From contig OZ024766.1 of NCBI GenBank assembly GCA_964016885.1, positions 1,240,001 through 1,304,000 on the forward strand: a DNA stretch of 64,000 nt, in the 5' to 3' direction. The notes under the pieces were generated by a model. The model did no database searches. It was not told the DNA's origin and saw nothing but the letters and a program-made list of their open reading frames with translations. Origin of the DNA: Eledone cirrhosa. Lineage: Eukaryota. The stretch's first letter is position 1; each line of letters starts with the position of its first letter. Shown here piece after piece: positions 1 through 60,958 of the stretch. A program made the translations under genes and the position numbers.

Positions 1-1380
1 TACACGTGTTCATACAGGAGATAAGCCATATCACTGTGATATCTGTGGTAAATCATTCACTACAGATAGTAGCCTAACATCTCACAAACGTATTCACACT
101 GGAGAGCAGCCATACCACTGTGATATCTGTGGTAAATCATTCTCTGTAAATAGTAACTTCGCTGCTCATAAACGCACTCATACAGGAGAGAAACCACATC
201 AGTGTGATATCTGTGGTACATCCTTCTCTCAAAAAGAGCAGTTAAATAGACACAAGCGTATTCACACAGGAGAGAAGCCACATCACTGTGATATCTGTGG
301 TAAATCTTTCACTAGAACTACTGGATTGACTTTGCACAAACGTATTCATACAGGAGAGAAGCCATTTGACTGTGATGTCTGTGGTAAATCATTCTCTCAG
401 TTGAGTAGCGTAACAATTCACAAACGTGTTCACACTGGAAAGTAGCCATACCACTGACATCTGTGGTAAATCATTCTCTGTTAGGTAACTTAACTGTACA
501 CAAACGTATTCACACCCGAGACAAGCCATATCACTGGAATGACTCTCCAGTGATTCTTTCCTGAGACATTCTAACCACATGCCCATAGTACAGGGTTGCT
601 ATTTAAATTAAAATCTTGCAACACAAGTCATGTTAAGTTACAATCTTTTTAATGAAATAATAATTTTAGCAGACCCAGCTCTGGGAATGTTAAATAAAAC
701 CACCCAGTTGAAAGGGTTCCTATTTAGATTGATATCTTTAGATATAGTTTTATATCAGAAGTAAATGTTAACTTACTATCTTAGTAATGTAATAATTTTA
801 GTAAATTATTTAATTGCAATACAGGGTTCCTATTTAATATAAGAACCTTCATTAAGTTACTTTCTTAGTAATGAAATAAATTTTACTAAACTCCTCCAGA
901 TTTGTCATTAATTAATTGAAATAGAGTGTATTTAATTAGAAATAAGGTGAGAAAAGGCTCAAACCTAGCTCTCCAGAATATCAGCTCTTTATCTGTATAT
1001 TTATATCAACAGAACTGTGAACCCCAGTATTGTAGGTTCTAATCTCACTACTGTTTGTAAATATTAAAAATAAACTGAAATTTCAACAAAACTATTTCTT
1101 CAAATATTCTTTTATTTTGTATGTGTGGCTTAGTGGTTAGGTTGTGGGACTTTCAATGATGGGGATGAGAGTTTCATTCCTTGACTGGGTTGTTAATTTA
1201 TTTTTCAGCAGGGCACGTCCTTACATGTTATTTCTCATGATAGGACTAGGGTCCCTATTGTTAAAACACTTAAGAATCCTCATTGGGATACAACCTTGTA
1301 AGAGGTCAGTTAGACCTTCCTAAGTGAGAGCTGTAACATATATATGATAGGACGGGGTCATGTATCTTAAAAACACTTGT
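1..1380 (+). repeat. Segmental duplication copy 1 (matches 7106-8481)
   Basis: Near-identical ZNF tail, 3' UTR with AATAAA at ~1069 and SINE remnant; similarity ends after aaacacttgt at 1380/8481. Confidence 0.95.
2..445 (+). CDS. 3' end of a tandem C2H2 zinc-finger gene (partial, 5 complete fingers), paralog of 5421-7550
   Basis: Frame from base 2 reads [19 protein letters not shown]...HKRVHTGK* with TAG at 443-445; aligns to 7107-7550 at offset 7105. Confidence 0.85.
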
Positions 1381-3745: not shown

Positions 3746-4189
3746 TATTGTTTGTAAATATAATTATGTGAACCTTTCAACGAAGGGCCTTGTTTCAGGA
3801 GCTACCAGGAGACAAGTCCCCTCCACTTTTTCAGGAACGGGACACAAACCCTCTTTTGTCTCCCCTAATCTTTCCCAATTTAGTCAAACGTCTATGTTTT
3901 ATATTTTGTTTATTTGATATAATAAATTCTTTTTAAACTTTTTTTTTTTAAATATCTGAACTTCATTTGAATATATAAAATTTAATTAGTGTAAAATGTT
4001 ACTTATGTGATAGGGTCCGGGGAAAATCTCCGTAAATAATACTAACATGCCCCTTTAAGGACCAACAAATGTTGGTTTGTCTCCCTCACATTTTGAAGGC
4101 AAACGAGACCCCTGCTTTCAATGATACAGTAATTATAGGATTTTGAGCTTTTAAAAATGATGAAAAGAATCGCCTAACCCTAACCCTTC

Positions 4190-4430
4190 TGTCATGACAC
4201 CAGCACTACCACATTTCAGAGTGTACTGTGTGTATTTTATCATGACACCAACACTATCACTTTACAGAATGTACTGGGTGTATTTTGTCATGACACCAGC
4301 ACTACTACTTTACAAAGTGTACTGGGTGTATTTTGTCATGACACCAGCACTTTACAGAGTGTACTGGGTGTATTTTGTCATGACTCCAGCACTTCCACTT
4401 TACAGAGTGTACTGGGTGTATTTTATTATG
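4190..4430. repeat. ~45-50 bp minisatellite, about 5 copies
   Basis: Unit catgacaccagcactaccactttacagagtgtactgggtgtattttgt; its reverse complement resembles the SINE A segment aaaaagcacccag..cactgtaaagtgg. Confidence 0.8.
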
Positions 4431-4435
4431 TATAT

Positions 4436-4843
4436 TTAACCCTTTAGCATTCACATTAATTTGTCAAATGTCATGTTTATCTGTTCACATTATTTGAAGA
4501 TAAATCACTAATATTGTCTTTTGATTCTTGTTTATTTTGAATGTCGTCGAGTGTAAAACCTTCAGAGTCGGTCCCACAACTTTCACAAGCCATGTTGATA
4601 CACACATAAAATCTGTTCTAATTTTAATGTTAAAAAAACACGTTGTTTCAAGTAGTTTCACTGTATTAAGTGTTAATTTTCGTGGTAAAGGCCTAATCTC
4701 GCAGTAATCTCGAATTGACGAGATTTTGATGACAGTATTGTTTATTTTGAGAATTTTAGTGTGGGTCTTGTTGGCTGGTTTTGGCCAGTTTGAACAAATA
4801 AAGGGGAAATAGTTCTGGCCGGTTTGAACATTAAAGTGTTTAA
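4436..4843. mobile_element. piggyBac-type MITE, decayed right end
   Basis: Starts TTAA-CCCTTTAGCATTCACATTA like 30710; ends ggccggtttgaacattaaagtgtttaa versus ggccggttttaacattaaagggttaa at 31084-31109. Confidence 0.6.
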
Positions 4844-5420
4844 CATATTTTCCAATTATAAATAGATATCTTAATGTCTTAAACTTTCCACTGTTGAATC
4901 TCTCCAGTTTAAGTTTCCTGTTTGTCTCATAGAGTTTCTTTATTATTTCAGAGTATCTCATGACATTGGCAGAAGATGACAGGTTTCACTTGAAAGGAAG
5001 ATACAGAACAGATATAACCCTGGTTATATAAATCTATCGTAGGAATTACTGGGAAATATTTCATCTAAACTGAGATAACAGCAGTTTTTCCACTTCATTT
5101 AATGGAATGTCTACAAGATAGTTTACTATGTTATTTAACTCTTAACTAAAGTATCATGGTGGACACAAACATCTAGAGTATCATCTCAATGACTGGTTAC
5201 ACAACTGAAGAGATCTTCAGTAAAATAATTCTAGAAAGGCTCACTAGTTTATAATTTCTGGTATTAAATACTAGTAAATTGAGTATTGTAGTGAGACAGA
5301 AATTGTGGAGGTATCAATCATTTGAGATTGATTTGTACCTTGAGAAAGGAACAAATAAGGAGAACCTGATACAACTGTGATATCTGTGGTAAATCATTCT
5401 CTGAAAGTACTGGATTAACT

Positions 5421-7550
5421 ATGCACAAACATAGTCGTACACGAGAGAAGCCATATCACTGTGATATCTGTGATAAATCATTCTATACAAAGAGTAACCT
5501 AAACACTCACAAACCTATTCATACAGGAGTGAAGCCATACCATTGTGATATCTGTGGAAAATCATTCTCAAGAAAAGAAGCCCTTATTTCTCACAAACGT
5601 ATTCACACAGGAGAGAAGCCATATCATTGTGATATCTGTGGTAAATCATTCTCTAGAAAGAGTGGCCTACCCAATCACAAACGTATTCATACCGGCGAGA
5701 AGCCACATCATTGTGATATCTGTGGTAAATCATTCACTACAAATTCTGAATTAACTAGACATAAACGTATTCATACCGGAGAAAAGCCGTATCGCTGTGA
5801 TATTTGTGGTAATTCATTCGCTACAAATACTGGATTAACTTCACACAAAAGATTTCATACAGGAGAGAAGCCATATCACTGTGACATCTGTGGTAAATCT
5901 TTCTCTGGAAATAGTAACCTAACATCTCACAAACGTACTCATACCGGAGAGAAGCCATATCAGTGTGACATCTGTGGTAAATCATTCTCTACAAATTCTG
6001 AATTAACTAGACATAAACGTACTCATACCGGAGAGAAGCCGTACCACTGTGATATCTGTGGTAAGTCATTCACTGTAGATACTGGATTATCTTCGCACAC
6101 ACGTATTCATACAGGCGAGAAGCCATATCATTGTGATATCTGTGGTAAATCATTCACTGTAGGTAGTGGATTAAGAGCACACAAACGTATACACACAGGA
6201 GAGAAACCATATCACTGTGATATCTGTGGTAAGTCATTCTCTCAAAATGGTGTATTGAAAGTTCACAAACGTATACACAGAGGAGAGAAGCCACACAGCT
6301 GTGATATCTGTGGTAAGTTATTCGCATCAAGTACTGGATTAACTAGACATAAACATATCCACACAGGAGAGAAGCCATACCACTGTGATATCTGTGGTAA
6401 GTCATTCTGTAGAAATGATGGATTAATTACGCACAAGCGGGCTCACACAGGAGAGAAGCCATGTCACTGTGATATCTGTGGTATGTCATTCTCCACAATT
6501 GCTAGCTTGACTAAACACAAACGTATTCATACTGGAGAGAAGCCATACCACTGTGCTATCTGTGGCAAATCATTCTCTCAAAATTCTGTGTTAATAACAC
6601 ACAAACGCATCCACACAGGAGAGAGGCCATATCACTGTGTTATCTGTGGTAAATCATTCTCTACAATTGGTGGTTTAAAGGAACACAAACAGATACATAC
6701 AGGAGAAAAGCCATACCACTGTGATATTTGTGGTAAATCATTTCTTACAAACAGAGTATTAACTAGACACAAACGTATTCATACAGGAGAGAAGCCATAT
6801 CACTGTGATATCTGTGGTAAATCATTCACACAAAATTCTGGGTTAACTGAACACAAGCGTACTCATACAGGAGAGAAGCCATATCATTGTGATATCTGCG
6901 GTAAATCATTCATTAGAAGTAGTCGGCTAAAAGCTCACAAATTTATTCATACTGGAGAGAAGCCATACCCCTGTAATATCTGTGGTAAATCATTCTCTAC
7001 AAATGCTGCATTATCTCAACATAAACTTGTTCACTCAGGGTTAAAGCGATACCGTTGTGACATCTGTGGTAAATCATTCAATTGTAGTGGTCATCTGACT
7101 ACTCACACACGTGTTCATACAGGAGATAAGCCATATCACTGTGATATCTGTGGTAAATCATTCACTACAGATAGTAGCCTAACATCTCACAAACGTATTC
7201 ACACTGGAGAGAAGCCATACCACTGTGATATCTGTGGTAAATCATTCTCTGTAAATAGTAACTTCGCTGCTCATAAACGCACTCATACAGGACAAAAGCC
7301 ACATCACTGTGATATCTGTGGTAAATCCTTCTCTGAAAAACACCTTTTAAATAGACACAAACGTATTCACACAGGAGAGAAACCACATCACTGTGATATC
7401 TGTGGTAAATCTTTCACTAGAACTACTGGATTGACTTCGCACAAACGTATTCATACAGGAGAGAAGCCATTTGACTGTGATGTCTGTGGTAAATCATTCT
7501 CTCAGTTGAGTAACCTAACAATTCACAAACGTGTTCACACTGGAGAGTAG
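5421..7550 (+). CDS. Tandem C2H2 zinc-finger protein, 25 fingers, no recognisable effector domain
   Basis: 709-aa ORF of 28-aa CxxC..F..L..HxxxH-TGEKP units. The start is uncertain because the ATG lies in a decayed upstream finger preceded by in-frame TGA at 5367. Confidence 0.9.
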
Positions 7551-8481
7551 ACATACCACTGATATCTGTGGTAAATCATTCTCTCAGTTAGGTAACTTAA
7601 CTGTACACAAACGTATTCACACCCAAGACAAGCCATATCACTGGAATGACTCTCCAGTGATTCTTTCCTGAGACATTCTAACCTAATGCCCATAGTACAG
7701 GGTTGCTATTTAAATTAAAATCTTGCAACACAAGTCATGTTAAGTTACAATCTTTTTAATGAAATAATAAAATTTAGCAGACCCAGCTCTGGGAATGTTA
7801 AATAAAACCACCCAGTTGAAAGGGTTCCTATTTAGATTGATATCTTTAGATATAGTTTTATATCAGAAGTAAATGTTAACTTACTATCTTAGTAATGTAA
7901 TAATTTTAGTAAATTATTTAATTGCAATACAGGGTTCCTATTTAATATAAGAACCTTCATTAAGTTACTTTCTTAGTAATGAAATAATTTTACTAAACTC
8001 CTCCAGATTTGTCATTAATTAATTAAAATACAGTGTATTTAATTAGAAATAAGGTGAGAAAAGGCTCAAACCTAGCTCTCCAGAATATCAGCTCTTTATC
8101 TGTATATTTATATCAACAGAACTGTGAACCCCAGTATTGTAGGTTCTAATCTCACTATTGTTTGTAAATATTAAAAATAAACTGAAATTTCAACAAAACT
8201 ATTTTTTCAAATATTCTTTTATTTTGTATGTGTGGCTTAGTGGTTAGGTTGTTGGACTTTCAATGATGAGAGTTTCATTCCTTGACTGGGTTGTTAATTT
8301 ATTTTTCAGCAGGGCACGTCCTTACATGTTATTTCTCATGATAGGGCTAGGGTCCCTATTGTTAAAACACTTGAGAATCCTCATTGGGATACAACCTTGT
8401 AAGAGGTCAGTTAGACCTTCCTAAGTGAGAGCTGTAACATATATATGATAGGACGGGGTCATGTATCTTAAAAACACTTGT
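7106..8481 (+). repeat. Segmental duplication copy 2 (matches 1-1380)
   Basis: Direct alignment at offset ~7105; truncated by an RTE fragment at 8482. Confidence 0.95.
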
Positions 8482-8949: not shown

Positions 8950-9740
8950 TTTTGACTTGGAGAAAGCCTTTGACAGAGTCCCCCTCTCCATTATCTGGTA
9001 GGCTCTTAGAAAACTAGGTGTAGATGAATGGCTTGTGAGAGCTATACAAGCCATGTATAAAGATAGTCAGCAAGGTTAGAATTAGTAATGAATATAGTGA
9101 AGAATTTAGCGTAAAAGTAGGTGTACATCAAGGCTCTGTCCTTAGTCCCCTCCAGGCTATAACAGGAGTTTAAGACCAGCTGCCCATGGGAACTCCTATA
9201 TGTAGATGATGTAACTCTCATAGCTGAATCTATGGCTGAACTAGAGAAGAAATTCCAAACATGGAAGCATGGCCTAGAATCAAAAGGCCTTAAAGTTAAC
9301 TTGTCTAGGACTAAAGTTCTAGTATGTAGAAAGGAAAATAGGGCACAGGTGCCCTCTGGGAAATGGCGATGCTCAGTGTGTAGGAAAGGAGTAGGTAGAA
9401 ATCCCATTCTATGCCACAAATGCAAGCTATGGGTACATAAAAGATGTAGTGGCATTACAGTGTGTAGGAAAGGAATAGGCAGAAATTCCATTTTATGTCC
9501 CAAATGCAAACTATGGGTACATAAAAGATGTAGTGGGATCACAGGTAAACTATCTAAGAACATAGATTTTATATGTGGCCGATGTTCAGGTGCAGTAAGT
9601 AGCAAGGGTCCACAGGATACGAGCTCCTTCTATTGCCCAGATGATTCTATAAAATAGTGGACACCTTCCGTTACCTGGGTGACAAAATCAGCAGTGGTGG
9701 AGGGTGTTCTGAAAGAACAGTAGCCACAGTCAGAACGGTG
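8950..9740 (+). mobile_element. RTE-clade LINE reverse transcriptase fragment with Cys-rich PHD-like insert
   Basis: DLEKAFDRVP, GVHQGSVLSP, ELLYVDD, GLKVNLSRTKVL, then CSVCRKGVGRN..CxxCxxWVHKRCSG..CGRC; disrupted by stops and frameshifts. Confidence 0.9.
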
Positions 9741-9787: not shown

Positions 9788-12700
9788 ATATCTGGGACAG
9801 ATGTTGTTACATACAGACAACCTTGACCACATTACAGTACTGCTACCACATCTGGGACAGTGTTGTTACACACAGACATCCTAGACCACATTACAGTACT
9901 GCTACCATATCTGGGACAGATGTTGTTACATACAGACAACCTTGACCACATTACAGTACTGCTACCACATCTGGGACAGTGTTGTTGTTACATACAGACA
10001 TCCTAGACCACATTACAGTACTGCTACCACATCTGGGACAGTGTTGTTACATACAGACATCCTAGACCACATTACAGTACTGCTACCACATCTGGGGCAG
10101 GGTTGTTACATACAGACATCCTAGACCACATTACAGTACTGCTACCACATCTGGGACAGTGTTGTTACATACAGACATCCTAGACCACATTACAGTACTG
10201 CTACCACATCTGGGGCAGGGTTGTTACATACAGACATCCTAGACCACATTACAGTACTGCTACCACATCTGGGACAGATCTTGTTACGTACAGATATCCT
10301 AGACCACATTACAGTACTGCTCCCACATCTGGGACAGATGTTGTTACATACAGACATCCTAGACCACATTACAGTACTGCTACCACATCTGGGACAGTGT
10401 TGTTACATACAGACACCCTAGACCACATTACAGTACTGCTACCACATCTGGGACAGTGTTGTTACATACAGACACCCTAGACCACATTACAGTACTGCTA
10501 CCACATCTGGGACAGTGTTGTTACATACAGACATCCTAGACCACATTACAGTACTGCTACCACATCTGGGACAGTGTTGTTACATACAGACATCCTAGAC
10601 CACATTACAGTACTGCTACCACATCTGGGACAGTGTTGTTACATACAGACATCCTAGACCACATTACAGTACTGCTACCACATCTGGGACAGATGTGGTT
10701 ACATACAGACATCCTAGACCACATTACAGTACTGCTACCACATCTGGGACAGATGTGGTTACATACAGACATCCTAGACCACATTACAGTACTGCTACCA
10801 TCTGGGACAGATGTTGTTACATACAGACATCCTAGACCACATTACAGTATTGCTACCACATCTGGGACAATGTTGTTACATACAGACATCCTAGACCACA
10901 TTACAGTACTGCTACCACATCTGGGGCAGGGTTGTTACATACAGACATCCTAGACCACATTACAGTACTGCTACCACATCTGGGACAGATCTTGTTACAT
11001 ACAGATATCCTAGACCACATTACAGTACTGCTACCACATCTGGGACAGATGTTGTTACATACAGACATCCTAGACCACATTACAGTACTGCTACCACATC
11101 TGGGACAGATCTTGTTACATACAGATATCCTAGACCACATTACAGTACTGCTACCACATCTGGGACAGATGTTGTTACATACAGATATCCTAGACCACAT
11201 TACAGTACTGCTACCACATCTGGGACAGATGTTGTTACATACAGACATCCTAGACCACATTACAGTACTGCTACCACATCTGGGACAGATCTTGTTACAT
11301 ACAGATATCCTAGACCACATTACAGTACTGCTACCACATCTGGGACAGATCTTGTTACATACAGATATCCTAGACCACATTACAGTACTGCTACCACATC
11401 TGGGACAGATGTTGTTACATACAGACATCCTAGACCACATTACAGTACTGCTACCACATCTGGGACAGATCTTGTTACATACAGATATCCTAGACCACAT
11501 TACAGTACTGCTACCACATCTGGGACAGTGTTGTTACATACAGACATCCTAGACCACATTACAGTACTGCTACCATATCTGGGGCAGGATTGTTACATAC
11601 AGACACCCTAGACCACATTACAGTACTGCTACCACATCTGGGACAGTGTTGTTACATACAGACATCCTAGACCACATTACACTACTGCTACCATATCTGG
11701 GACAGATGTTGTTACATACAGATATCCTAGACCACATTATAGTACTGCTACCACATCTGGGACAGTGTTGTTACATACAGACATCCTAGACCACATTACA
11801 GTATTGCTACCACATCTGGGACAGATGTTGTTACATACAGACATCCTAGACCACATTACAGTACTGCTACCATATCTGGGACAGATGTTGTTACATACAG
11901 ACATCCTAGACCACATTACAGTACTGCTACCACATCTGGGACAGTGTTGTTACATACAGACATCCTAGACCACATTACAGTACTGCTACCATATCTGGGA
12001 CAGATGTTGTTACATACAGACATCCTAGACCACATTACAGTACTGCTACCACATCTGGGACAGATGTTGTTACATACAGACAACCTTGACCACATTACAG
12101 TACTGCTACCACATCTGGGACAGATGTGGTTACATACAGACAACCTTGACCACATTACAGTACTGCTACCACATCTGGGACAGTGTTGTTGTTACATACA
12201 GACATCCTAGACCACATTACAGTACTGCTACCATATCTGGGGCAGGGTTGTTACATACAGACATCCTTGACCACATTACAGTACTGCTACCACATCTGGG
12301 ACAGTGTTGTTACATACAGACATCCTAGACCACATTACAGTACTGCTACCACATCTGGGGCAGGGTTGTTACATACAGACATCCTAGACCACATTACAGT
12401 ACTGCTACCATATCTGGGGCAGGGTTGTTGTTACATACAGACATCCTAGACCACATTACAGTACTGCTACCACATCTGGGACAGTGTTGTTACATACAGA
12501 CATCCTAGACCACATTACAGTACTGCTACCACATCTGGGACAGTGTTGTTACATACAGACATCCTAGACCACATTACAGTACTGCTACCACATCTGGGAC
12601 AGTGTTGTTGTTACATACAGACATCCTAGACCACATTACAGTACTGCTACCACATCTGGGACAGTGTTGTTACATACAGACATCCTAGACCACATTACAG

Positions 12701-13470
12701 TACTGCTACCACATCTGGGGCAGTGTTGTTACATACAGACATCCTAGACCACATTACAGTACTGCTACCACATCTGGGACAGTGTTGTTACATACAGACA
12801 TCCTAGACCACATTACAGTACTGCTACCATATCTGGGACAGATGTTGTTACATACAGACAACCTTGACCACATTACAGTACTGCTACCACATCTGGGACA
12901 GTGTTGTTACATACAGACATCCTAGACCACATTACAGTACTGCTACCACATCTGGGGCAGGGTTGTTACATACAGACATCCTAGACCACATTACAGTACT
13001 GCTACCATATCTGGGACAGATGTTACATACAGACATCCTTGACCACATTACAGTACTGCTACCACATCTGGGACAGTGTTGTTACATACAGACATCCTAG
13101 ACCACATTACAGTACTGCTACCACATCTGGGGCAGGGTTGTTACATACAGACATCCTAGACCACATTACAGTACTGCTACCATATCTGGGGCAGGGTTGT
13201 TACATACAGACATCCTAGACCACATTACAGTACTGCTACCACATCTGGGACAGTGCTGTTACATACAGACATCCTAGACCACATTACAGTACTGCTACCA
13301 TATCTGGGACAGATGTTGTTACATACAGACATCCTAGACCACATTACAGTACTGCTACCACATCTGGGACAGATGTTGTTACATACAGACATCCTAGACC
13401 ACATTACAGTACTGCTACCATATCTGGGACAGTGTTGTTACACAGATATCATAGACATTAGAGTACTGCT
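9788..13470. repeat. 59-62 bp tandem satellite, roughly 60 copies
   Basis: Unit catctgggacagatgttgttacatacagacatcctagaccacattacagtactgctacca, head-to-tail with no unique spacers. Confidence 0.97.
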
Positions 13471-13692
13471 CGCATATCTACTGGGATTTCTTGGCACTTC
13501 TTCACCCAGCAGTCATCCTCCATGTGCATCACATGTCCATACCAACGCAGTCTTCTCTCCCGTACACTACAACTCATCCCTCTTATACAGTTTCTCTCAT
13601 CCATGCTTGGTGGTTCACATATATTGACATTGCACATCCAGCAGAGCATGATTGCTTCATTTCTCTCCAGTTGTCGCATATCCTCTGCTGTA
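13470..13692 (-). mobile_element. RTE-clade LINE C-terminal fragment
   Basis: MRQLERNEAIMLCWMC...ERRLRWYGHVMHMEDDCWVKKC is typical of the RTE ORF end. Confidence 0.85.
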
Positions 13693-14895: not shown

Positions 14896-15386
14896 GTGGT
14901 GAACAATCCTGGTTTATTAGGTCAACACACGTATACAGAAATAAACACACGATCATATATTCTGCCACCTCATCCCGAATATATACACACACACACATTC
15001 TTTCCGGTCATCAGTCTCATACTGTCATGTCTATTCTTACTTTACAGTTGTGTCAACTGAGAGTTCCATTATAATCTGTAGAAGAACGACTTTGACCAGA
15101 ACATCTGCTATCGGTCATTTATAGACAAAACATCTTGTTTTAGACTACATAGCATCCATTAACTATAGCCACCTTTCTTAACAAAGAAATAGAAGTATTT
15201 TTCTCTACAACAATATATATGTAGCACTTGGAGAGGACTCACTTTGCTACAAGAATTTTATTGGTATGTAGAAAATATATCTACATTGCATATTTTCCAC
15301 ACGTGTAAATAGTCCTACGATATCTAAGACAAGAAACTGAACTGTAACATATAAACAGATATTTCCCAACTTCTTCAAGAATTACT

Positions 15387-16688
15387 ATGGAAGACGTTAA
15401 ACACTCGGACATTTCTAACACATCTGTTTCTACCAATATAGATACAGTTACACAGACATACAGTGGTGAGATGGACATTTCTAAAACACCTGTTTCTACC
15501 AATATAGATACAGTTACGCAGACATACAGTGGTGAGCTGGACATTTCTACCACACCTGTTTCTACCAATATAGATACAGTTACACAGACATACAGTGATG
15601 AGAAACCTTTACCTAGTGAAACATGTACTGAACAAGGATCTTTACACAGAAATATTCCTGAATATAGCTGTGAGATTTGTAGGAAAACTTTCTCTTCAGA
15701 AGATGAATTATCCACACACAAAGGCTCACACACTAAAGACAAACCCTTCCAATGTCAAATATGTGAAAAATCTTTCACTGCGAAATCGCATCTCATTTAC
15801 CACATTCGAAGTCACACCGGAGAAAAACCTTTCCACTGTGAAATATGTGGGAAATCTTTTGTCAACAGCAATGACTTAAGAAAACATGTAAGAATCCATA
15901 CTGGAGAGAAACCCTACCATTGTGAAATATGTGGGAAGTCTTTTGGCCATAATAGTCATTTGTCTACACATATACGGATACACACAGGAGAGAAACCTTA
16001 TCACTGTGAAATATGTGCGAAATCTTTCACTCAGTACTCCAACCTTATTACACATCTACGTAGACACACTGGGGAGAAACCTTTCCACTGTGAACTATGT
16101 GGAAAAACTTTCGTTGAAAATGCTTGTCTTCTAGTCCACAAACGAACACACAGTGGTGAGAAACCTTACCATTGTGAAATATGTGGGAAATCCTTTGTTA
16201 AAAACGATTATCTAATTGTACACAAGAGAACACATACAGGAGAGAAACCATTTCATTGTGAAACTTGTGGGAAATCTTTTACTTCAAATTCTAATATTGT
16301 TCGTCACATTCGTAGCCACACAGGAGAGAAACCGTTTCACTGTGAAATATGTGGGAAATCTTTTCTTACAAGTAGCCACTTAAGCAGACATAAAAAATCA
16401 CACACCGGAGAAAGATCTTACCACTGTGAAATATGTGGTAAATCATTTGTCTCAAACAGTGATTTATCACGACACAACCGAATACATACTGGAGAAAAAC
16501 CTTATCATTGCGATGTCTGTGGAAAATCTTTCTCTGTAGATTCTCATCTAATTACCCACAAACGTTGTCATACCGGTGAAAAACCCTACCACTGTGAAAT
16601 ATGTGGGAAATCTTTTGTCTGTAGCAGTCACTTAAGTCGACACAAGCGAATACATACAAAACGACAGTCTCTTTACTGTGAAACCTGA
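15387..16688 (+). CDS. C2H2 zinc-finger protein, 12 fingers, N-terminal 3 x 21-aa T/S-rich repeat
   Basis: 433-aa ATG-initiated ORF; repeat [21 protein letters not shown]; AATAAA at ~17218. Confidence 0.9.
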
Positions 16689-19514: not shown

Positions 19515-19918
19515 CATATTTCACAGTTAAAATGTTTTCCTCCAATGTGTGTTTGTGTTTATTTAAGTTACGATTAGAGAAGAAAGATTTCCCATATATT
19601 TCACAATGAAAGGGTTTCTCTCCAGTGTGACTATGTATGTGTCTAAGAAGACAGGTTTCTCAGTGAAAGATTTTCCACATATTTCAGTGATAGGGTTTCT
19701 CTCCAGTATGTGTTCTTTTGTGAAATAGAAGTTTAGTATTTTCAGTGAAAGATTTCCCACATATTTCACAATGATAGGGTTTCTCTCCAGTATGTGTTCT
19801 CTTGTGTCTAGCTTGTGACAAAAGATTTCCCACATATTTCGCAGTGATAGGGTTTCTCTCCAGTGTGACTACGTGTCTAAGAAGACTAAGTTTCTCAGTG
19901 AAAGATTTCCCACATATT
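19515..19918 (-). pseudogene. About 5 decayed zinc fingers downstream of the stop of the minus-strand ZNF
   Basis: Finger DNA (ggagagaaaccctatcattgtgaaatatgtgggaaatct) continues with several small deletions and frameshifts. Confidence 0.85.
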
Positions 19919-21232
19919 TCACAATGATAGAGTTTTTTCTCCAGTGTGAGTTCTTTTGTGTTCAGTTAGTTTACTGGTTCTGACAAAAGATTTCCCACAA
20001 ATCTCGCATTGGAAGGGTTTTTCTCCAGTATGACCCCGTTTGTGGTTGATAAGAGTTGAATTAGCAGAGAAGGATTTTCCACATATTTCACAGTGGAAAG
20101 GTTTTTCTCCAGTGTGAACACGTATGTGGCTAACCAGATTAACATTCGAAGTGAAAGATTTCCCACATCTTTCACAATGAAAATGTCTATCTCCAGTGTG
20201 TATTCTTCTATGTTTTGTTAACGCACTACTGTCGATAAACGATTTTTGACATAATTCACACGTATATGGTTTTTCTCCAGTGTGTATTCTTTTGTGTTTC
20301 TTCAAATCCCCCTTAACAGCAAAAAATTTCCCACATATTTCACATTGATAAGGTTTTTCTCCTGTGTGTGTCCTTTTGTGTTTAGTTAAATCACAGGTTT
20401 TAACAAAAGATAGTCCACATATTTCACAGTGGAAGGGTTTTTCTCCTGTGTGAGTTCGTATGTGTAAAACAAGATTACCACTCCGAGGAAAAGATTTCCC
20501 ACATATTTCACAGTGGAAGGGTTTCTCTCCCGTGTGACTACGTATATGTAAAACAAGGTTAGAACTCTGAGGGAACGATTTCCCACATATTTCACAGTGG
20601 AAGGGTTTCTCTCTCGTGTGTGTCATTTTATGCCTGTTTAATTGACTATTAGTGAGAAAATATTTTCCACATATTTCACAATGGAAGGGTTTTTCTCCAG
20701 TGTGACCACGAATATGGACAACTAGAAGATATTTACAAGTGAAACATTTCCCAAATATTTCACAATGAAATGGTTTCTCTCCTGTGTGACTTCGTATATG
20801 GATAACAAGGTGAGATTTTTTAGTGAAAGATTTCCCACATATTTCACATTTGAAAGGTTTCTCTCCAGTGTGGCTACGTATGTGCCTACCAAGACAATTT
20901 TTCCGAGTGAAAGATTTCCCACATATTTCACATTGGAAGGGTTTGTCTTTAGTGTGTGTGCCTTTGTGTGTGGATAATTCATCTTCTGAAGAGAAAGTTT
21001 TCCTACAAATCTCACAGCTATATTCAGGAATATTTCTGTGTAAAGATCCTTGTTCAGTACATGTTTCACTAGGTAAAGGTTTCTCATCACTGTATGTCTG
21101 TGTAACTGTATCTATATTGGTAGAAACAGGTGTGGTAGAAATGTCCATCTCACCACTGTATGTCTGTGTAACTGTATCTATATTGGTAGAAACAGGTGTG
21201 GTATAAATGTCTAAGTGTTTAATGTACTCCAT
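19919..21232 (-). CDS. C2H2 zinc-finger protein, 13 fingers (finger 4 has Cys->Phe), N-terminal 2 x 21-aa repeat
   Basis: ATG at 21232 (MEYIKHLDI) aligns with paralog start MEDVKHSDI; ends through an A-run frameshift (TGEKTLSL*). Confidence 0.88.
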
Positions 21233-21309
21233 ATTATATATATATATACAGGTGTCCAAGAAATTATTAATTGTATGACTGCGTGCGTGTAGTCTTAATA
21301 ATTGTTCAC

Positions 21310-21910
21310 CACGGAGTGTAAAGAAGTACACAATATCTGCTGTGTTAACAATACAAATAATACGTATTTTATATTTCAAGTCCAAATGTAAAGTCAAGAA
21401 AGACCAGGAAAGCTAATTGTTCAGATGTTGGTGATTTAAACCTATTTCTCACTGTCCTGTAAAATGTGGAACAACCAATTCACGATGTAGCGTAGTTTCT
21501 CATGAAATGAAATATTTAATCATGTAGGAGATGGAACACCTACCCTGGAACATGTAGCTCACTCTATGTTATCTACAGAATATTAACTTTCACCTTAACA
21601 TGAGATAATTACCACACAAGATATAATTAGATTAATTAAAGTTATAATTAACATGCCAGATACTCGGTGTCGTTGGTAATACTTCACTCCCCTTGACACC
21701 GGTGTCGTACGTTAAAAGTCCCTGATATAATTTAATACCTTCAGTTATATCAATTCACAACACCCGGTAAAACAAACAACACCACCCAGTGAAATAAACT
21801 ATTAAGTATGAACGAGGCTGTCTCTTACCTTGTTACTTGATGTGCTAGAAATAGCGGCCAACTGACTTTTAACGTCTTAAATTAAGGGAAGAACCGATTC
21901 AGCAGTGTAC
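21310..21910 (-). promoter_or_regulatory. Inverted copy of 14297-14895
   Basis: Direct reverse-complement match; regulatory role inferred. Confidence 0.55.
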
Positions 21911-57404: not shown

Positions 57405-57987
57405 ATGATTGATTTTAAATCAGTGATATAATTTATGGAGAAAAACCCTGCATTTCGATATTACTCAATGTAAAATGTAATGCATGAAAAATTGGAAAAC
57501 ATTATTTTTTGTAATATATCACATCAAAATTACATTATTAAATCTTATTCTTATTTTGTTTCTTGTAAATAATTTTTTTCAAAATATCAATTAAAACTTT
57601 TTGTGAATATGCATCATATGTTGTCATTTACCTATGGCTTAAATTTCATATAAATCGAAGGGAAAACACTTTCGGCAGGGGTTTTGGCCGTCGGCGACCC
57701 TAATAGGTGGTTTAACCCCCATTAGGGTGTCTTAATATTATTGAAATTTGCTGAAATTTTGTGAATAGACATCATATCTTATCATTTATCTATGGTTTAA
57801 ATTTCATATAAATTGAAGGGAAACAAATTTTCAGCGGGGTTTTGTGTCCCCGGGGAACCCTTTGATTAAAATGAACTATAGTTATCCAAGTACCCTGGGC
57901 AATGTAGTTTCAGAATATATATGGTTATGGGGGTCTGTCTCCAAAACCATAGGAGTTTGTGAACAACAAAACAAACAGACGGGAATA

Positions 57988-60178
57988 CAACCATCCGACC
58001 AGCCAGCCAACCAACCAACCATACCAACCAGCCAGCCAACCAACCAACCAGCCATCCAACCAACCAACCAACCATCCAACCAGCCATCCAACCAACCAAC
58101 CAACCATCCAACCAGCCATCCAACCAACCAACCATCCAACCAGCCATCCAACCAACCAACCAACCAACCATCCAACCAGCCATCCAACCAGCCATCCAAC
58201 CAGCCATCCAACCAACCAACCAACCAACCAACCAAGAATCCAACCAACCAACCATCCAACCAACCATCCAACCAACCAACCAACTATCCAACCAGCCATC
58301 CAACCAACCATCCAACCATCCAACCATCCAACCAACCAACCAACCATCCAACCAACCGACCAACCAACCAGCCAGCCATCCAACCAACCATCCAACCAAC
58401 CAAACAACCATCCAACCAGCCATCCAACCAACCAACCAACCAACCAACCATCCAACCAGCCATCCAACCAACCAACCAACCAACCAACCATCCAACCAAC
58501 CATCCAACCAACCAACCAAGAATCCAACCAACCAACCATCCAACCAACCAACCAGCCAGCCATCCAACCAACCATCCAACCAACCAACCAACTATCCAAC
58601 CAGCGATCCAACCATCCAACCATCCAACCATCCAACCAACCAACCATCCAACCAACCAACCGACCAACCAACCAGCCAGCCATCCAACCAACCATCCAAC
58701 CAACCAACCAACCAACCAACCACCCAACCAGCCAGCCAGCCAGCCATCCAACCGACCAACCAACCACCCAACCAACCAACCAGCCAACCAACCACCCAAC
58801 CAACCAGCCATCCAACCAACCAACCATCCAGCCAACCAGCCATCCAACCAACCAACCATCCAACCAGCCATCCAACCATCCAGCCATCCAACCAACCATC
58901 CAACCATCCATCCATCCAACCATCCAACCAACCAACCAACCAACCAGCCAACCAACCAACCATCCAACCAACCACCCACCCAACCAACCAGCCAACCAAC
59001 CAGCCAACCAACCAACCATCCAACCAACCATCCAACCATCCAACCAACCAACCAACCATCCAACCAACCAACCGACCAACCAACCAGCCAGCCATCCAAC
59101 CAACCATCCAACCAGCCATCCAACCAACCAACCAACCAACCAACCACCCAACCATCCAGCCAGCCAGCCATCCAACCGACCAACCAACCAACCAACCAAC
59201 CACCCAACCAACCAACCAGCCAACCAGCCAACCAACCAACCACCCAACCAACCAGCCATCCAACCAACCAACCAGCCAGCCAACCAGCCATCCAACCAAC
59301 CAACCATCCAACCAGCCATCCAACCAACCATCCAACCATCCATCCATCCAACCATCCAACCAACCAACCAACCAACCAGCCAACCAACCAACCATCCAAC
59401 CAACCACCCACCCAACCAACCAACCAGCCAACCAACCAGCCAACCAACCAACCATCCAACCATCCAACCAACCAGCCAACCATCCAACCAACCAACCATC
59501 CAACCAACCAGCCATCCATCCAACCAACCAACCAACCATCCATCCAACCAACCAACCATCCAACCAACCAACCATCCATCCAACCAACCAACCAACCATC
59601 CAACCAGCCAGCCAACCAACCAACCAGCCAGCCAACCATCCAACCAACCAACCAACCAACCAACCAACCATCCATCCAACCAACCAGCCATCCATCCAAC
59701 CAACCAACCATCCAGCCATCCATCCAACCAACCAGCCATCCATCCATCCAACCAACCATCCATCCAACCAACCAGCCATCCATCCAACCAACCAGCCAAC
59801 CATCCAACCAACCAACCATCCAACCAACCAGCCATCCATCCAACCAACCAACCAACCATCCATCCAACCAACTAACCATCCAACCAACCAACCAACCAGC
59901 CAGCCAACCAACCAACCAACCATCCAACCATCCAACCATCCAACCAACCAGCCAACCATCCAACCAACCAACCATCCAACCAACCAGCCATCCATCCAAC
60001 CAACCACCCAGCCATCCAACCAACCAACCAACCATCCAACCAACCATCCAACCATCCAACCAACCAACCAACCAACCAGCCATCCATCCAACCAACCAGC
60101 CATCCATCCAACCAACCAACCATCCAACCAACCAACCAACCAACCAACCAACCACCCAACCAGCCAGCCAGCCAGCCG
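57988..60178. repeat. 2.2-kb (CCAA/CCAT/CCAG)n tetranucleotide tract
   Basis: Directly visible. Confidence 0.97.
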
Positions 60179-60210
60179 TGCAGTCAGTCAGTCAGTATTT
60201 CGTTGCTGCG

Positions 60211-60958
60211 ATGTTCGGAGCCAAACGTGAGTTGATGTGTCTGGAGTTGTATTCGGGGAACCGACCCTGTCGTGTTTCCTTCAGCGACGAGGGGGTGGTG
60301 TGGTGTCACGTTGGGATGACACCGCCACCTCCACCATCATCGACCTACACCACCACCACCACCACTACTACTACACCGCCGCCGCCGCCAACTAGTACTT
60401 CTAACATCAACAACAACACTACACCAACAACTACACCACCACCGAGCTACACCGCCGCCGCCGCTACCACCACTACCACTACAGCACCAACACCGCCATC
60501 ACAACAAACCACGACACCGTCGAAAACCACTTCCTTCCCCTGCTCTTCCTCCTCGCCCTATGGTGGAAATCCGCCTTACAACAACAACAACAACAACACC
60601 ACAACAACAACAACAGCCACACTATTACAACAACAACAACACAAAAAACAACACAAGAAGAAAAAACAACAACAACAATATGTAGAACGATATCGCCAAC
60701 TCGATACGAATGCTGCTCAGGCACCTGCAGCAGAGCAAAAGTTGACAAACAACAACAACAGCACAACAACAACAACAACGACAACAACACATCAACACAA
60801 ACAACAACAACAACAATATTATGAGCGTTACCGCCAAATGGATACTGAGGCTGCTCGGACACTTGCCGGACCCCAACCCCAGCAAAAGCAGGTTCCCCTG
60901 CCCCCGAGGCCGACCAAAAGACAAAACCGGGGGAGACCTGATACAGAAGATTTCGGAG
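60211..60958 (+). CDS. Candidate first coding exon; start resembles the ceramide kinase/CERKL PH-domain N-terminus, then T/P/Q/N low-complexity sequence
   Basis: ATG at 60211; [16 protein letters not shown] fits a GxxxCxVxLSExxxxW pattern recalled from CERKL; in-frame triplet repeats; donor GAG|GTAGGG at 60959. Confidence 0.5.

What the first reader, a model, noticed from the sequence alone, without database searches (positions are those of the whole stretch)
182..445. Recent ZNF duplicates differ preferentially at DNA-contact residues
Seen: 3' flanks of the two copies (1-1380 and 7106-8481) are nearly identical, yet recognition helices differ: QKEQLNR vs EKHLLNR (-1, +2, +3), RTTGLTL vs RTTGLTS (+6), QLSSVTI vs QLSNLTI (+3, +4). 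Established: positions -1, +2, +3 and +6 set base specificity. Inference: diversifying selection or targeted conversion, as in vertebrate KRAB-ZNF versus transposon arms races but without KRAB. Only five fingers are comparable.
Basis: partly seen in the sequence, partly recalled or inferred. Interest (0 to 1): 0.7.

Follow-up and report, generated by a model that had tools for sequence, protein, structure and literature searches.

The report
Zinc-finger twins rewriting DNA-reading residues
Three side-by-side copies of a 26-finger zinc-finger gene, in a genome that is likely an octopus's, change their DNA-reading amino acids about 2 to 2.7 times faster than silent sites while keeping the fold intact, which likely means selection for new DNA targets, a pattern already known from mammals and fish, with the targets themselves untested.

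Summary
One finger supplies 3 of the 5 (codon test p 0.03-0.07). I fetched the upstream DNA: the upstream copy is an intact 726-codon, 26-finger frame, one of four paralogs in a nine-gene cluster. Across three alignable copies, contact-site dN/dS is 2.7 (about 1.75-4.3, p about 1e-5), or 2.3 with multinucleotide changes; scaffold is 0.42 and no zinc ligand of fingers 2-26 changes. M7/M8-type tests agree (p 5e-4). One clear finger conversion (fingers 13-14) was excluded. Simulated neutral conversion inflates the ratio to 1.5-2.0 but leaves donor footprints on 27-68% of contact changes; 1 of 17 had one. No KRAB or other effector domain was found. The transposon target is untested. The pattern is published for KRAB-less fish, and this scan found it before on other DNA of this genome. 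New member of a known kind.

The parts
2..445 (+). 3' end of gene A3 (end of finger 21, fingers 22-26, stop TAG at 443-445). The full frame starts upstream of the window at G000:C27:1238265; 726 codons, 26 fingers, first ATG at C27:1238316 (709 aa)
203..265 (+). A3 finger 24, helix QKEQLNR (same as in A2, so the ancestral state)
287..349 (+). A3 finger 25, helix RTTGLTL (same as in A1 and A2)
371..433 (+). A3 finger 26, helix QLSSVTI (same as in A1)
446..1380 (+). A3 3' flank: out-of-frame finger remnant after the stop, then non-coding DNA with AATAAA at 693, 875, 1069; 13 of 928 columns differ from the A4 flank; the duplication with A4 ends at 1380 while that with A2 runs on for 2.8 kb
4210..5369 (+). 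A4 5' flank shared with A3 (starts in a minisatellite); pyrimidine tract and AG before 4952 are kept in all four copies, a likely splice acceptor of a last exon (inferred, no RNA evidence)
5370..7550 (+). Gene A4: 726-codon frame, 26 C2H2 fingers; first ATG at 5421 lies inside finger 1 and is kept in all four copies, giving a likely 709-aa, 25-finger protein; no other Pfam domain among the 25 best of 33 families shown
6384..6530 (+). A4 fingers 13-14 (like A2); in A3 these two are replaced by copies of fingers 15-16 (exact matches of 67, 31, 45 and 24 nt to the A1 counterparts), a gene-conversion tract left out of the main test
7308..7370 (+). A4 finger 24, derived helix EKHLLNR: five transversions in 12 nt (7335-7346), no donor found in the genome
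7392..7538 (+). A4 fingers 25 and 26, derived helices RTTGLTS and QLSNLTI; the second matches finger 7 over 12 nt and may be a micro-conversion
   Evidence: the finger-25 change lies in a public contig with 0 differences over 7387-7469
7551..8481 (+). A4 3' flank, end of the duplicated segment
15348..16688 (+). Gene B3, 12 fingers with an N-terminal leader; second family of the same cluster
19919..21412 (-). Gene B4, 13 finger units (one degenerate) followed by out-of-frame remnants; second family of the same cluster

Best explanation
These are intact tandem duplicates of a zinc-finger-only gene whose base-contacting residues (-1, +2, +3, +6) change about 2 to 2.7 times faster than silent sites while the scaffold is conserved, likely because natural selection favours new DNA-binding specificities. 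Shown: four paralogs in one cluster, intact frames, conserved zinc ligands, excess amino-acid change at contact codons, one two-finger conversion. Inferred: copies arose by unequal crossing-over; most contact changes are point mutations fixed by selection, with occasional finger conversion adding variety; each copy makes a 709-aa, 25-finger DNA-binding protein with no effector domain. Predicted and untested: the copies read different sequences (12 of 25 fingers differ in the contact quartet between A3 and A4), and the moving target is most likely young transposons or other repeats (about 0.4), silenced by occupancy or by a partner not yet known.
For: Fixed-site codon model on A2, A3, A4 without the conversion tract (664 of 724 codons): omega contact 2.73, other helix 1.18, scaffold 0.42, linker 0.68; 2dL 17.9; profile interval about 1.75-4.3. 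With multinucleotide changes 2.30 (p 6e-4); without finger 24, 2.60 and 2.34; A3/A4 alone 2.57 (p 0.004) and 2.00 (p 0.043). M1a/M2a p 7e-4, M7/M8 p 5e-4, M8a/M8 p 7e-5 (own implementation). The four contact positions carry 8, 8, 8 and 10 changes; no other position more than 4. Silent change in helix codons is 0.041, not raised, so the helix is not a mutation hot spot. A1 against each other copy gives 3.0-6.8 (uncorrected counts, not independent). 0 zinc-ligand changes in fingers 2-26 against 3.1-7.9 expected on the A3 and A4 branches if neutral. Donor footprints on 1 of 17 contact changes. Precedent: PMC2604467, PMC10547256.
Against: Only three fully alignable copies, with a mosaic history (informative sites 30:2:3; flank indels disagree). 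The A3/A4 pair alone is borderline with multinucleotide changes (p 0.043). Neutral conversion reaches the observed ratio in 4-16% of simulations when it supplies 80% of silent divergence. 3 of 17 contact changes have a weaker donor match (at least 4 nt each side) against 5% expected from point mutation. Lost or allelic donors cannot be excluded. The random-site models flagged all 82 variable codons, only 33 of them contact sites, so they do not resolve sites. No expression, binding or target data.
Confidence: 0.72

Rival explanations
1. Neutral conversion between fingers or paralogs: fingers differ from each other mainly in the helix, so any copied tract looks like contact-site change and inflates dN/dS without selection.
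For: One clear tract (A3 fingers 13-14). Array silent divergence 0.079 against 0.027 (3' flank) and 0.046 (5' flank); silent change is higher in scaffold and linker (0.090) than in helices (0.041), p 0.064. Simulated conversion gives omega 1.5-2.0. A1's middle fingers and the B arrays are replaced wholesale. Differences cluster at 188-277.
Against: Conversion from the extant arrays would leave donor matches of at least 6 nt each side on 27-68% of contact changes; observed 1 of 17. No genome-wide donor for the finger-24 helix and no local template of 11 nt or more in 264 kb. With conversion at 50% of silent divergence, at most 2.7% of simulations reach the observed value.
Confidence: 0.15
2. 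Relaxed constraint at contact sites plus multinucleotide mutations: true omega is near 1 and a few multi-base events create the excess.
For: The multinucleotide term improves the fit (lnL -3374.2 to -3366.9); several contact codons change at two bases; such events are known to mislead selection tests (10.1101/165969, search listing).
Against: Omega stays 2.3 (p 6e-4) with the term, and 2.34 without finger 24; counting one event per codon gives 2.2.
Confidence: 0.08
3. Assembly artefact or stacked haplotypes: the copies are alleles or carry sequencing errors.
For: Flank divergence of 1-2% is in the range of heterozygosity reported for a squid (about 1.2%, PMC9068888). No listed public contig bridges the finger-24 helix.
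Against: Four copies with different boundaries and orientations; differences respect codon structure and spare zinc ligands; public contigs show the A4 form of 6971-7143 with 0 differences and a form with the A3 letters at 7083, 7089, 7090. These runs are one study and may include the assembled sample, so they are not independent.
Confidence: 0.04

Closest known systems
Vertebrate poly-ZF lineage-specific expansions (Emerson and Thomas 2009, PMC2604467; passages read)
   Same: Recent tandem paralogs, positive selection concentrated at helix contact positions, short conversions among paralogs; includes zebrafish and fugu, listed with 0 KRAB domains.
   Different: Here a small invertebrate-type cluster with no effector domain found; that paper found no such signal in Drosophila or Anopheles and lists no mollusc in its tables.
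Zebrafish FiNZ-ZNFs and the metazoan survey (Wells et al. 2023, PMC10547256; passages and section 6 read)
   Same: KRAB-less arrays under positive selection at base-contacting residues; octopus ZNF motifs are predicted there to be enriched in transposon sequences, and contact positions are among the most variable.
   Different: FiNZ genes have a conserved N-terminal domain on its own exon and knock-down evidence; dN/dS was run there for zebrafish only. Family A shows no N-terminal domain and has no functional data.
Coleoid cephalopod C2H2 expansion (PMC12513265, passages and section 16; PMC9068888, passages)
   Same: Large, lineage-specific, clustered C2H2 families; the arms race with transposons is stated as an open question.
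   Different: The passages I saw report no contact-site selection test. That this genome is an octopus's is inferred (recalled finger consensus and genome features, and earlier notes); my protein searches listed no cephalopod name.
Hemipteran ZF271-like genes (PMC6444547; passages)
   Same: Finger-only proteins in tandem clusters of 4-8 genes, high turnover, array shuffling, no KRAB.
   Different: No dN/dS test at contact sites in the passages seen.
PRDM9 finger minisatellite (search listing only; details recalled)
   Same: Fast change at contact residues with conversion among fingers.
   Different: No PR/SET, KRAB or SSXRD match; fingers within A4 are only 76% identical, not a homogenised minisatellite; four paralogs, not one locus.

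Membership tests
Tandem Kruppel-type C2H2 poly-ZF genes | Many C-x2-C-x12-H-x3-H fingers joined by TGEKP-type linkers | tested here: met
   25 canonical fingers plus one with a lost His in A3 and A4; Pfam PF00096 24 stretches
Tandem Kruppel-type C2H2 poly-ZF genes | Clustered recent paralogs under purifying selection on the fold | tested here: met
   Nine genes in about 60 kb, no other array in 264 kb; scaffold omega 0.42; 0 zinc-ligand changes
Adaptively evolving poly-ZF expansions | dN/dS above 1 at -1, +2, +3, +6 | tested here: met
   omega 2.0-2.7; M7/M8 p 5e-4
KRAB-ZNF | N-terminal KRAB domain | tested here: not met
   No KRAB in A4, B3, B4 or 18 plus-strand frames of 35 aa or more upstream of A4. 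PF01352 gave 0 matches in the genome, but its control rang nowhere, so that search alone does not show absence. Distant 5' exons are unknown.
FiNZ-ZNF | Conserved acidic 28-aa FiNZ domain on a separate upstream exon | tested here: inconclusive
   No FiNZ profile was searched; no Pfam match upstream; described as cyprinid-specific
Transposon-silencing ZNFs | Sequence-specific binding to transposon families and their repression | not testable with these tools
   No motif predictor, transposon library or binding data on hand
PRDM9 | PR/SET domain with KRAB and SSXRD, and a near-identical finger minisatellite | tested here: not met
   No such Pfam match; mean finger-to-finger identity 0.758
Coleoid cephalopod C2H2 expansion | Cephalopod origin and placement in an octopus-specific clade | tested here: inconclusive
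   Searches ranked generic long arrays of other animals (best 120 of 6463 and of 6083 listed); the B leader found no match
Functional gene | Transcription | tested here: inconclusive
   No RNA holder was listed

The most novel reading that the evidence does not exclude
A likely octopus runs an ongoing, vertebrate-like arms race against young transposons with proteins made of fingers alone: point mutations at contact residues are selected within near-identical duplicates, whole arrays are swapped behind shared 5' modules (family B), and silencing works without KRAB or FiNZ through an unknown partner. This would be a third independent origin of such a defence and the first with contact-site dN/dS above 1 in a mollusc that my searches could find.
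Probability: 0.3. Interest if true: 0.62.

Novelty: new member of a known kind. Interest (0 to 1): 0.36.

Why it matters
Whether the huge cephalopod zinc-finger expansion is driven by conflict with transposons is named as an open question (PMC12513265 section 16). A small, fully alignable set of paralogs with known derived contact changes makes it testable: A3 and A4 differ in 12 of 25 fingers on an otherwise shared background. It also gives a caution for such scans: neutral finger conversion alone yields an apparent dN/dS of 1.5-2.0 at contact sites, so a donor test is needed. The pattern itself is not a surprise to a specialist.

Tried and rejected
Self-BLAST of the whole window timed out; done later on 71 kb with arrays masked. 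Protein searches for orthologs and taxon: best 120 rows were generic long arrays with no cephalopod name; the B leader had 71 candidates and none at E 0.001. KRAB search of the genome: 0 matches, control silent. No RNA holder listed; the two guessed-RNA runs laid matched only as short pieces with many differences, from other organisms by their labels, so nothing on expression. Focused contig laying did not list a piece bridging the finger-24 helix. My first orthology rule for A1 was off by one for fingers 2-5, so the 140-nt 'donor' matches for A2 there are orthologous sequence, not conversion; I discarded them, and the donor count uses only the A3 and A4 branches. The donor pool was A2-A4 only; A1, B and C were covered and gave no two-sided long match outside the tract. 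Family B could not serve as a replicate: beyond finger 1 its fingers do not align in register. Site posteriors were uninformative with three sequences. Motif prediction by a recalled recognition code was not done; published accuracy is about 5%. Albertin 2015 (PMC4795812) is not held. Using flank identity as the neutral clock was rejected.

Full report
Observation. Window 2-1380 aligns to 7107-8481 with 30 mismatches in 1372 columns; 17 lie in the 445 coding bases and 13 in the flank. But the five fingers differ at 11 residues: 5 contact, 1 at +4, 5 linker or scaffold. Twelve of the 17 nucleotide differences cluster in 188-277 (p 2e-4), and finger 24 alone gives three contact changes through five transversions in 12 nt. 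On these five fingers a codon model gives omega_contact 3.1-3.3 with p 0.035-0.067.

Anatomy. The window is G000:C27:1240001-1304000. The 3' flank has four close copies in the genome search, all within 37 kb. Twenty neighbouring stretches show an isolated cluster of nine finger arrays at C27:1.2016-1.2614 Mb and no other array in the 264 kb examined. Family B has four genes and C one. A2, A3 and A4 align finger for finger over 26 fingers. The next arrays in the genome are 78% identical or less (best 40 of 2054 candidates scored). The first ATG lies inside finger 1 in all four copies, so the likely product is 709 aa with 25 fingers; a likely splice acceptor before 4952 is shared. Both points are inference. 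Pfam finds only finger families in A4 among the 25 best of 33 shown, and nothing but one weak unrelated hit in 18 upstream frames.

Not pseudogenes. A3 and A4 have no stop or frameshift over 726 codons, while their flanks align in 5 and 9 blocks. No Cys or His ligand of fingers 2-26 changes in A2, A3 or A4; 3.1-7.9 changes would be expected on the A3 and A4 branches if neutral (P 0.046-0.0004), and 6.7-19.8 on all three.

Selection test. A3 against A4 over 26 fingers: 21 of 104 contact codons differ, against 9 of 104 other helix, 10 of 338 scaffold and 9 of 178 linker; pN contact 0.117, pS 0.068. A3 fingers 13-14 are a converted copy of fingers 15-16, so 60 of 724 codons were dropped. A fixed-site MG94-type model of my own on the remaining 664 codons of three copies gives omega 2.73, 1.18, 0.42 and 0.68 for contact, other helix, scaffold and linker (2dL 17.9; interval about 1.75-4.3); with the tract kept, 2.41. 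Allowing multi-base changes gives 2.30 (p 6e-4); dropping finger 24 gives 2.60 and 2.34; A3/A4 alone 2.57 (p 0.004) and 2.00 (p 0.043). Random-site versions agree: M1a/M2a p 7e-4, M7/M8 p 5e-4, M8a/M8 p 7e-5, but they flag all 82 variable codons (33 of 96 contact, 49 of 568 others) and do not resolve sites. A1 against the others on 16-17 orthologous fingers gives 3.0-6.8 by uncorrected counts, not independent of the above.

The flank is the wrong clock. Neutral tree length is 0.079 in the array, 0.027 in the 3' flank and 0.046 in the 5' flank. Silent change is 0.090 in scaffold and linker and 0.041 in helix codons (p 0.064). This suggests conversion among scaffolds, or homogenised flanks (inference). 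It makes the internal omega conservative and argues against a mutation hot spot in the helix.

Conversion as a rival. I simulated three lineages with neutral contact sites and conversion from out-of-register fingers, 150 runs per setting. Without conversion omega is 1.02 and 0 of 150 reach the observed count-based 2.61. With conversion at 50% of silent divergence omega is 1.5-1.6 (0.7-2.7% reach it); at 80%, 1.9-2.0 (4-16%). Such conversion leaves exact donor matches of at least 6 nt on each side for 27-68% of contact changes; the observed figure on the A3 and A4 branches is 1 of 17 (1% under point mutation). At 4 nt it is 3 of 17 (5% expected), so a few micro-conversions are possible, such as finger 26 of A4. 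The finger-24 helix of A4 occurs once in the genome, exactly or with up to 3 mismatches in 32 nt, and has no local template of 11 nt or more. Lost or allelic donors remain possible.

Artefact. Public contigs of one study show both the A4 and the A3 letters at finger 21 and the A4 form of finger 25; none listed bridges the finger-24 helix. They may come from the assembled sample.

Mechanism. Shown: duplication, conserved fold, excess contact change, one conversion. From established knowledge (PMC2604467): -1, +3 and +6 make the main base contacts, with +1 and +2 in some fingers. Inferred: the copies diverge in specificity, as 12 of 25 fingers differ in the contact quartet between A3 and A4 and 17 of 25 against A2. 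Untested: the target. Transposons are the leading guess because octopus ZNF motifs are predicted to be enriched in them (PMC10547256 section 6), but that paper calls for direct validation.

Comparison. Positive selection at contact sites in recent paralogs is published for mammals, frog, chicken, and for zebrafish and fugu with no KRAB, and was not found in Drosophila or Anopheles (PMC2604467, passages). FiNZ genes repeat it (PMC10547256, passages and section 6). Finger-only clusters are described in bugs (PMC6444547, passages). Cephalopod papers describe the expansion and leave the arms race open (PMC12513265 passages and section 16; PMC9068888 passages; PMC12988792 passages). Five searches listed no cephalopod contact-site dN/dS test. 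I read no supplements, and Albertin 2015 is not held; its supplements and Supplemental Fig. 8 of PMC10547256 may bear on that claim. The octopus label is inferred from recalled features and from earlier notes, not from a call that names the organism. Earlier notes of this scan report the same pattern at other clusters of this genome (8 of 230 shown); they are unchecked and not counted as support.

Verdict. Real, statistically supported on the full genes, mechanism of a known kind, target unknown. New member of a known kind; interest 0.36.

Noticed in passing
window 15348-16688 (+), 19919-21412 (-); G000:C27:1208668-1210062 (-), 1221772-1223625 (+): Family B: 5' flanks differ by only 1.9-2.4% and finger 1 is 79-83 of 84 nt identical, yet the other fingers match no better than 48-73 of 84 nt and I saw no shared 3' flank in the (cut) BLAST list. 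Either whole arrays were swapped or a 5' module was copied or homogenised in front of older arrays.
   Followed up: partly
G000:C27:1212391-1214832 (-), gene A1: Flanks within 1.5-2.3% of the other A copies, fingers 1-5 and 15-26 largely orthologous, but the middle fingers match no A2 finger above background.
   Followed up: partly
window 15390-15668 and 21017-21232: Family B proteins start with a 50-90-aa leader with a 22-aa repeat in one to three copies; no Pfam match and no protein match in the large collection. Possible effector or decayed finger.
   Followed up: partly
window 446-547 and 7551-7654; window 19700-19920: Out-of-frame finger remnants lie behind the stop codons of family A and of B4: arrays shortened from the 3' end.
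   Followed up: partly
window 9163-9657: Fragment with a weak reverse-transcriptase match and PHD fingers, likely a LINE relic inserted at or near the end of the A4 duplication.
   Followed up: partly
window about 9790-13480, 4160-4400; C27:1199272-1200652, 1228610-1229110: Several minisatellites (about 60-nt and 99-nt units) interleave the cluster; some are shared between gene units.
   Followed up: no
window 34224-34586: A 120-aa frame that resembles a DDE transposase fragment (recalled motif).
   Followed up: no
window 57817-60230: Long low-complexity tetranucleotide-derived repeat giving open frames in several phases.
   Followed up: no
G000:C18:6443600-6445772 and 6461124-6463296, C28:126919788-126921960; C27:15.8-16.75 Mb: Other sets of finger arrays with near-equal scores and lengths, likely recent duplicates, one set spread over two contigs; candidates for replicate tests.
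   Followed up: no
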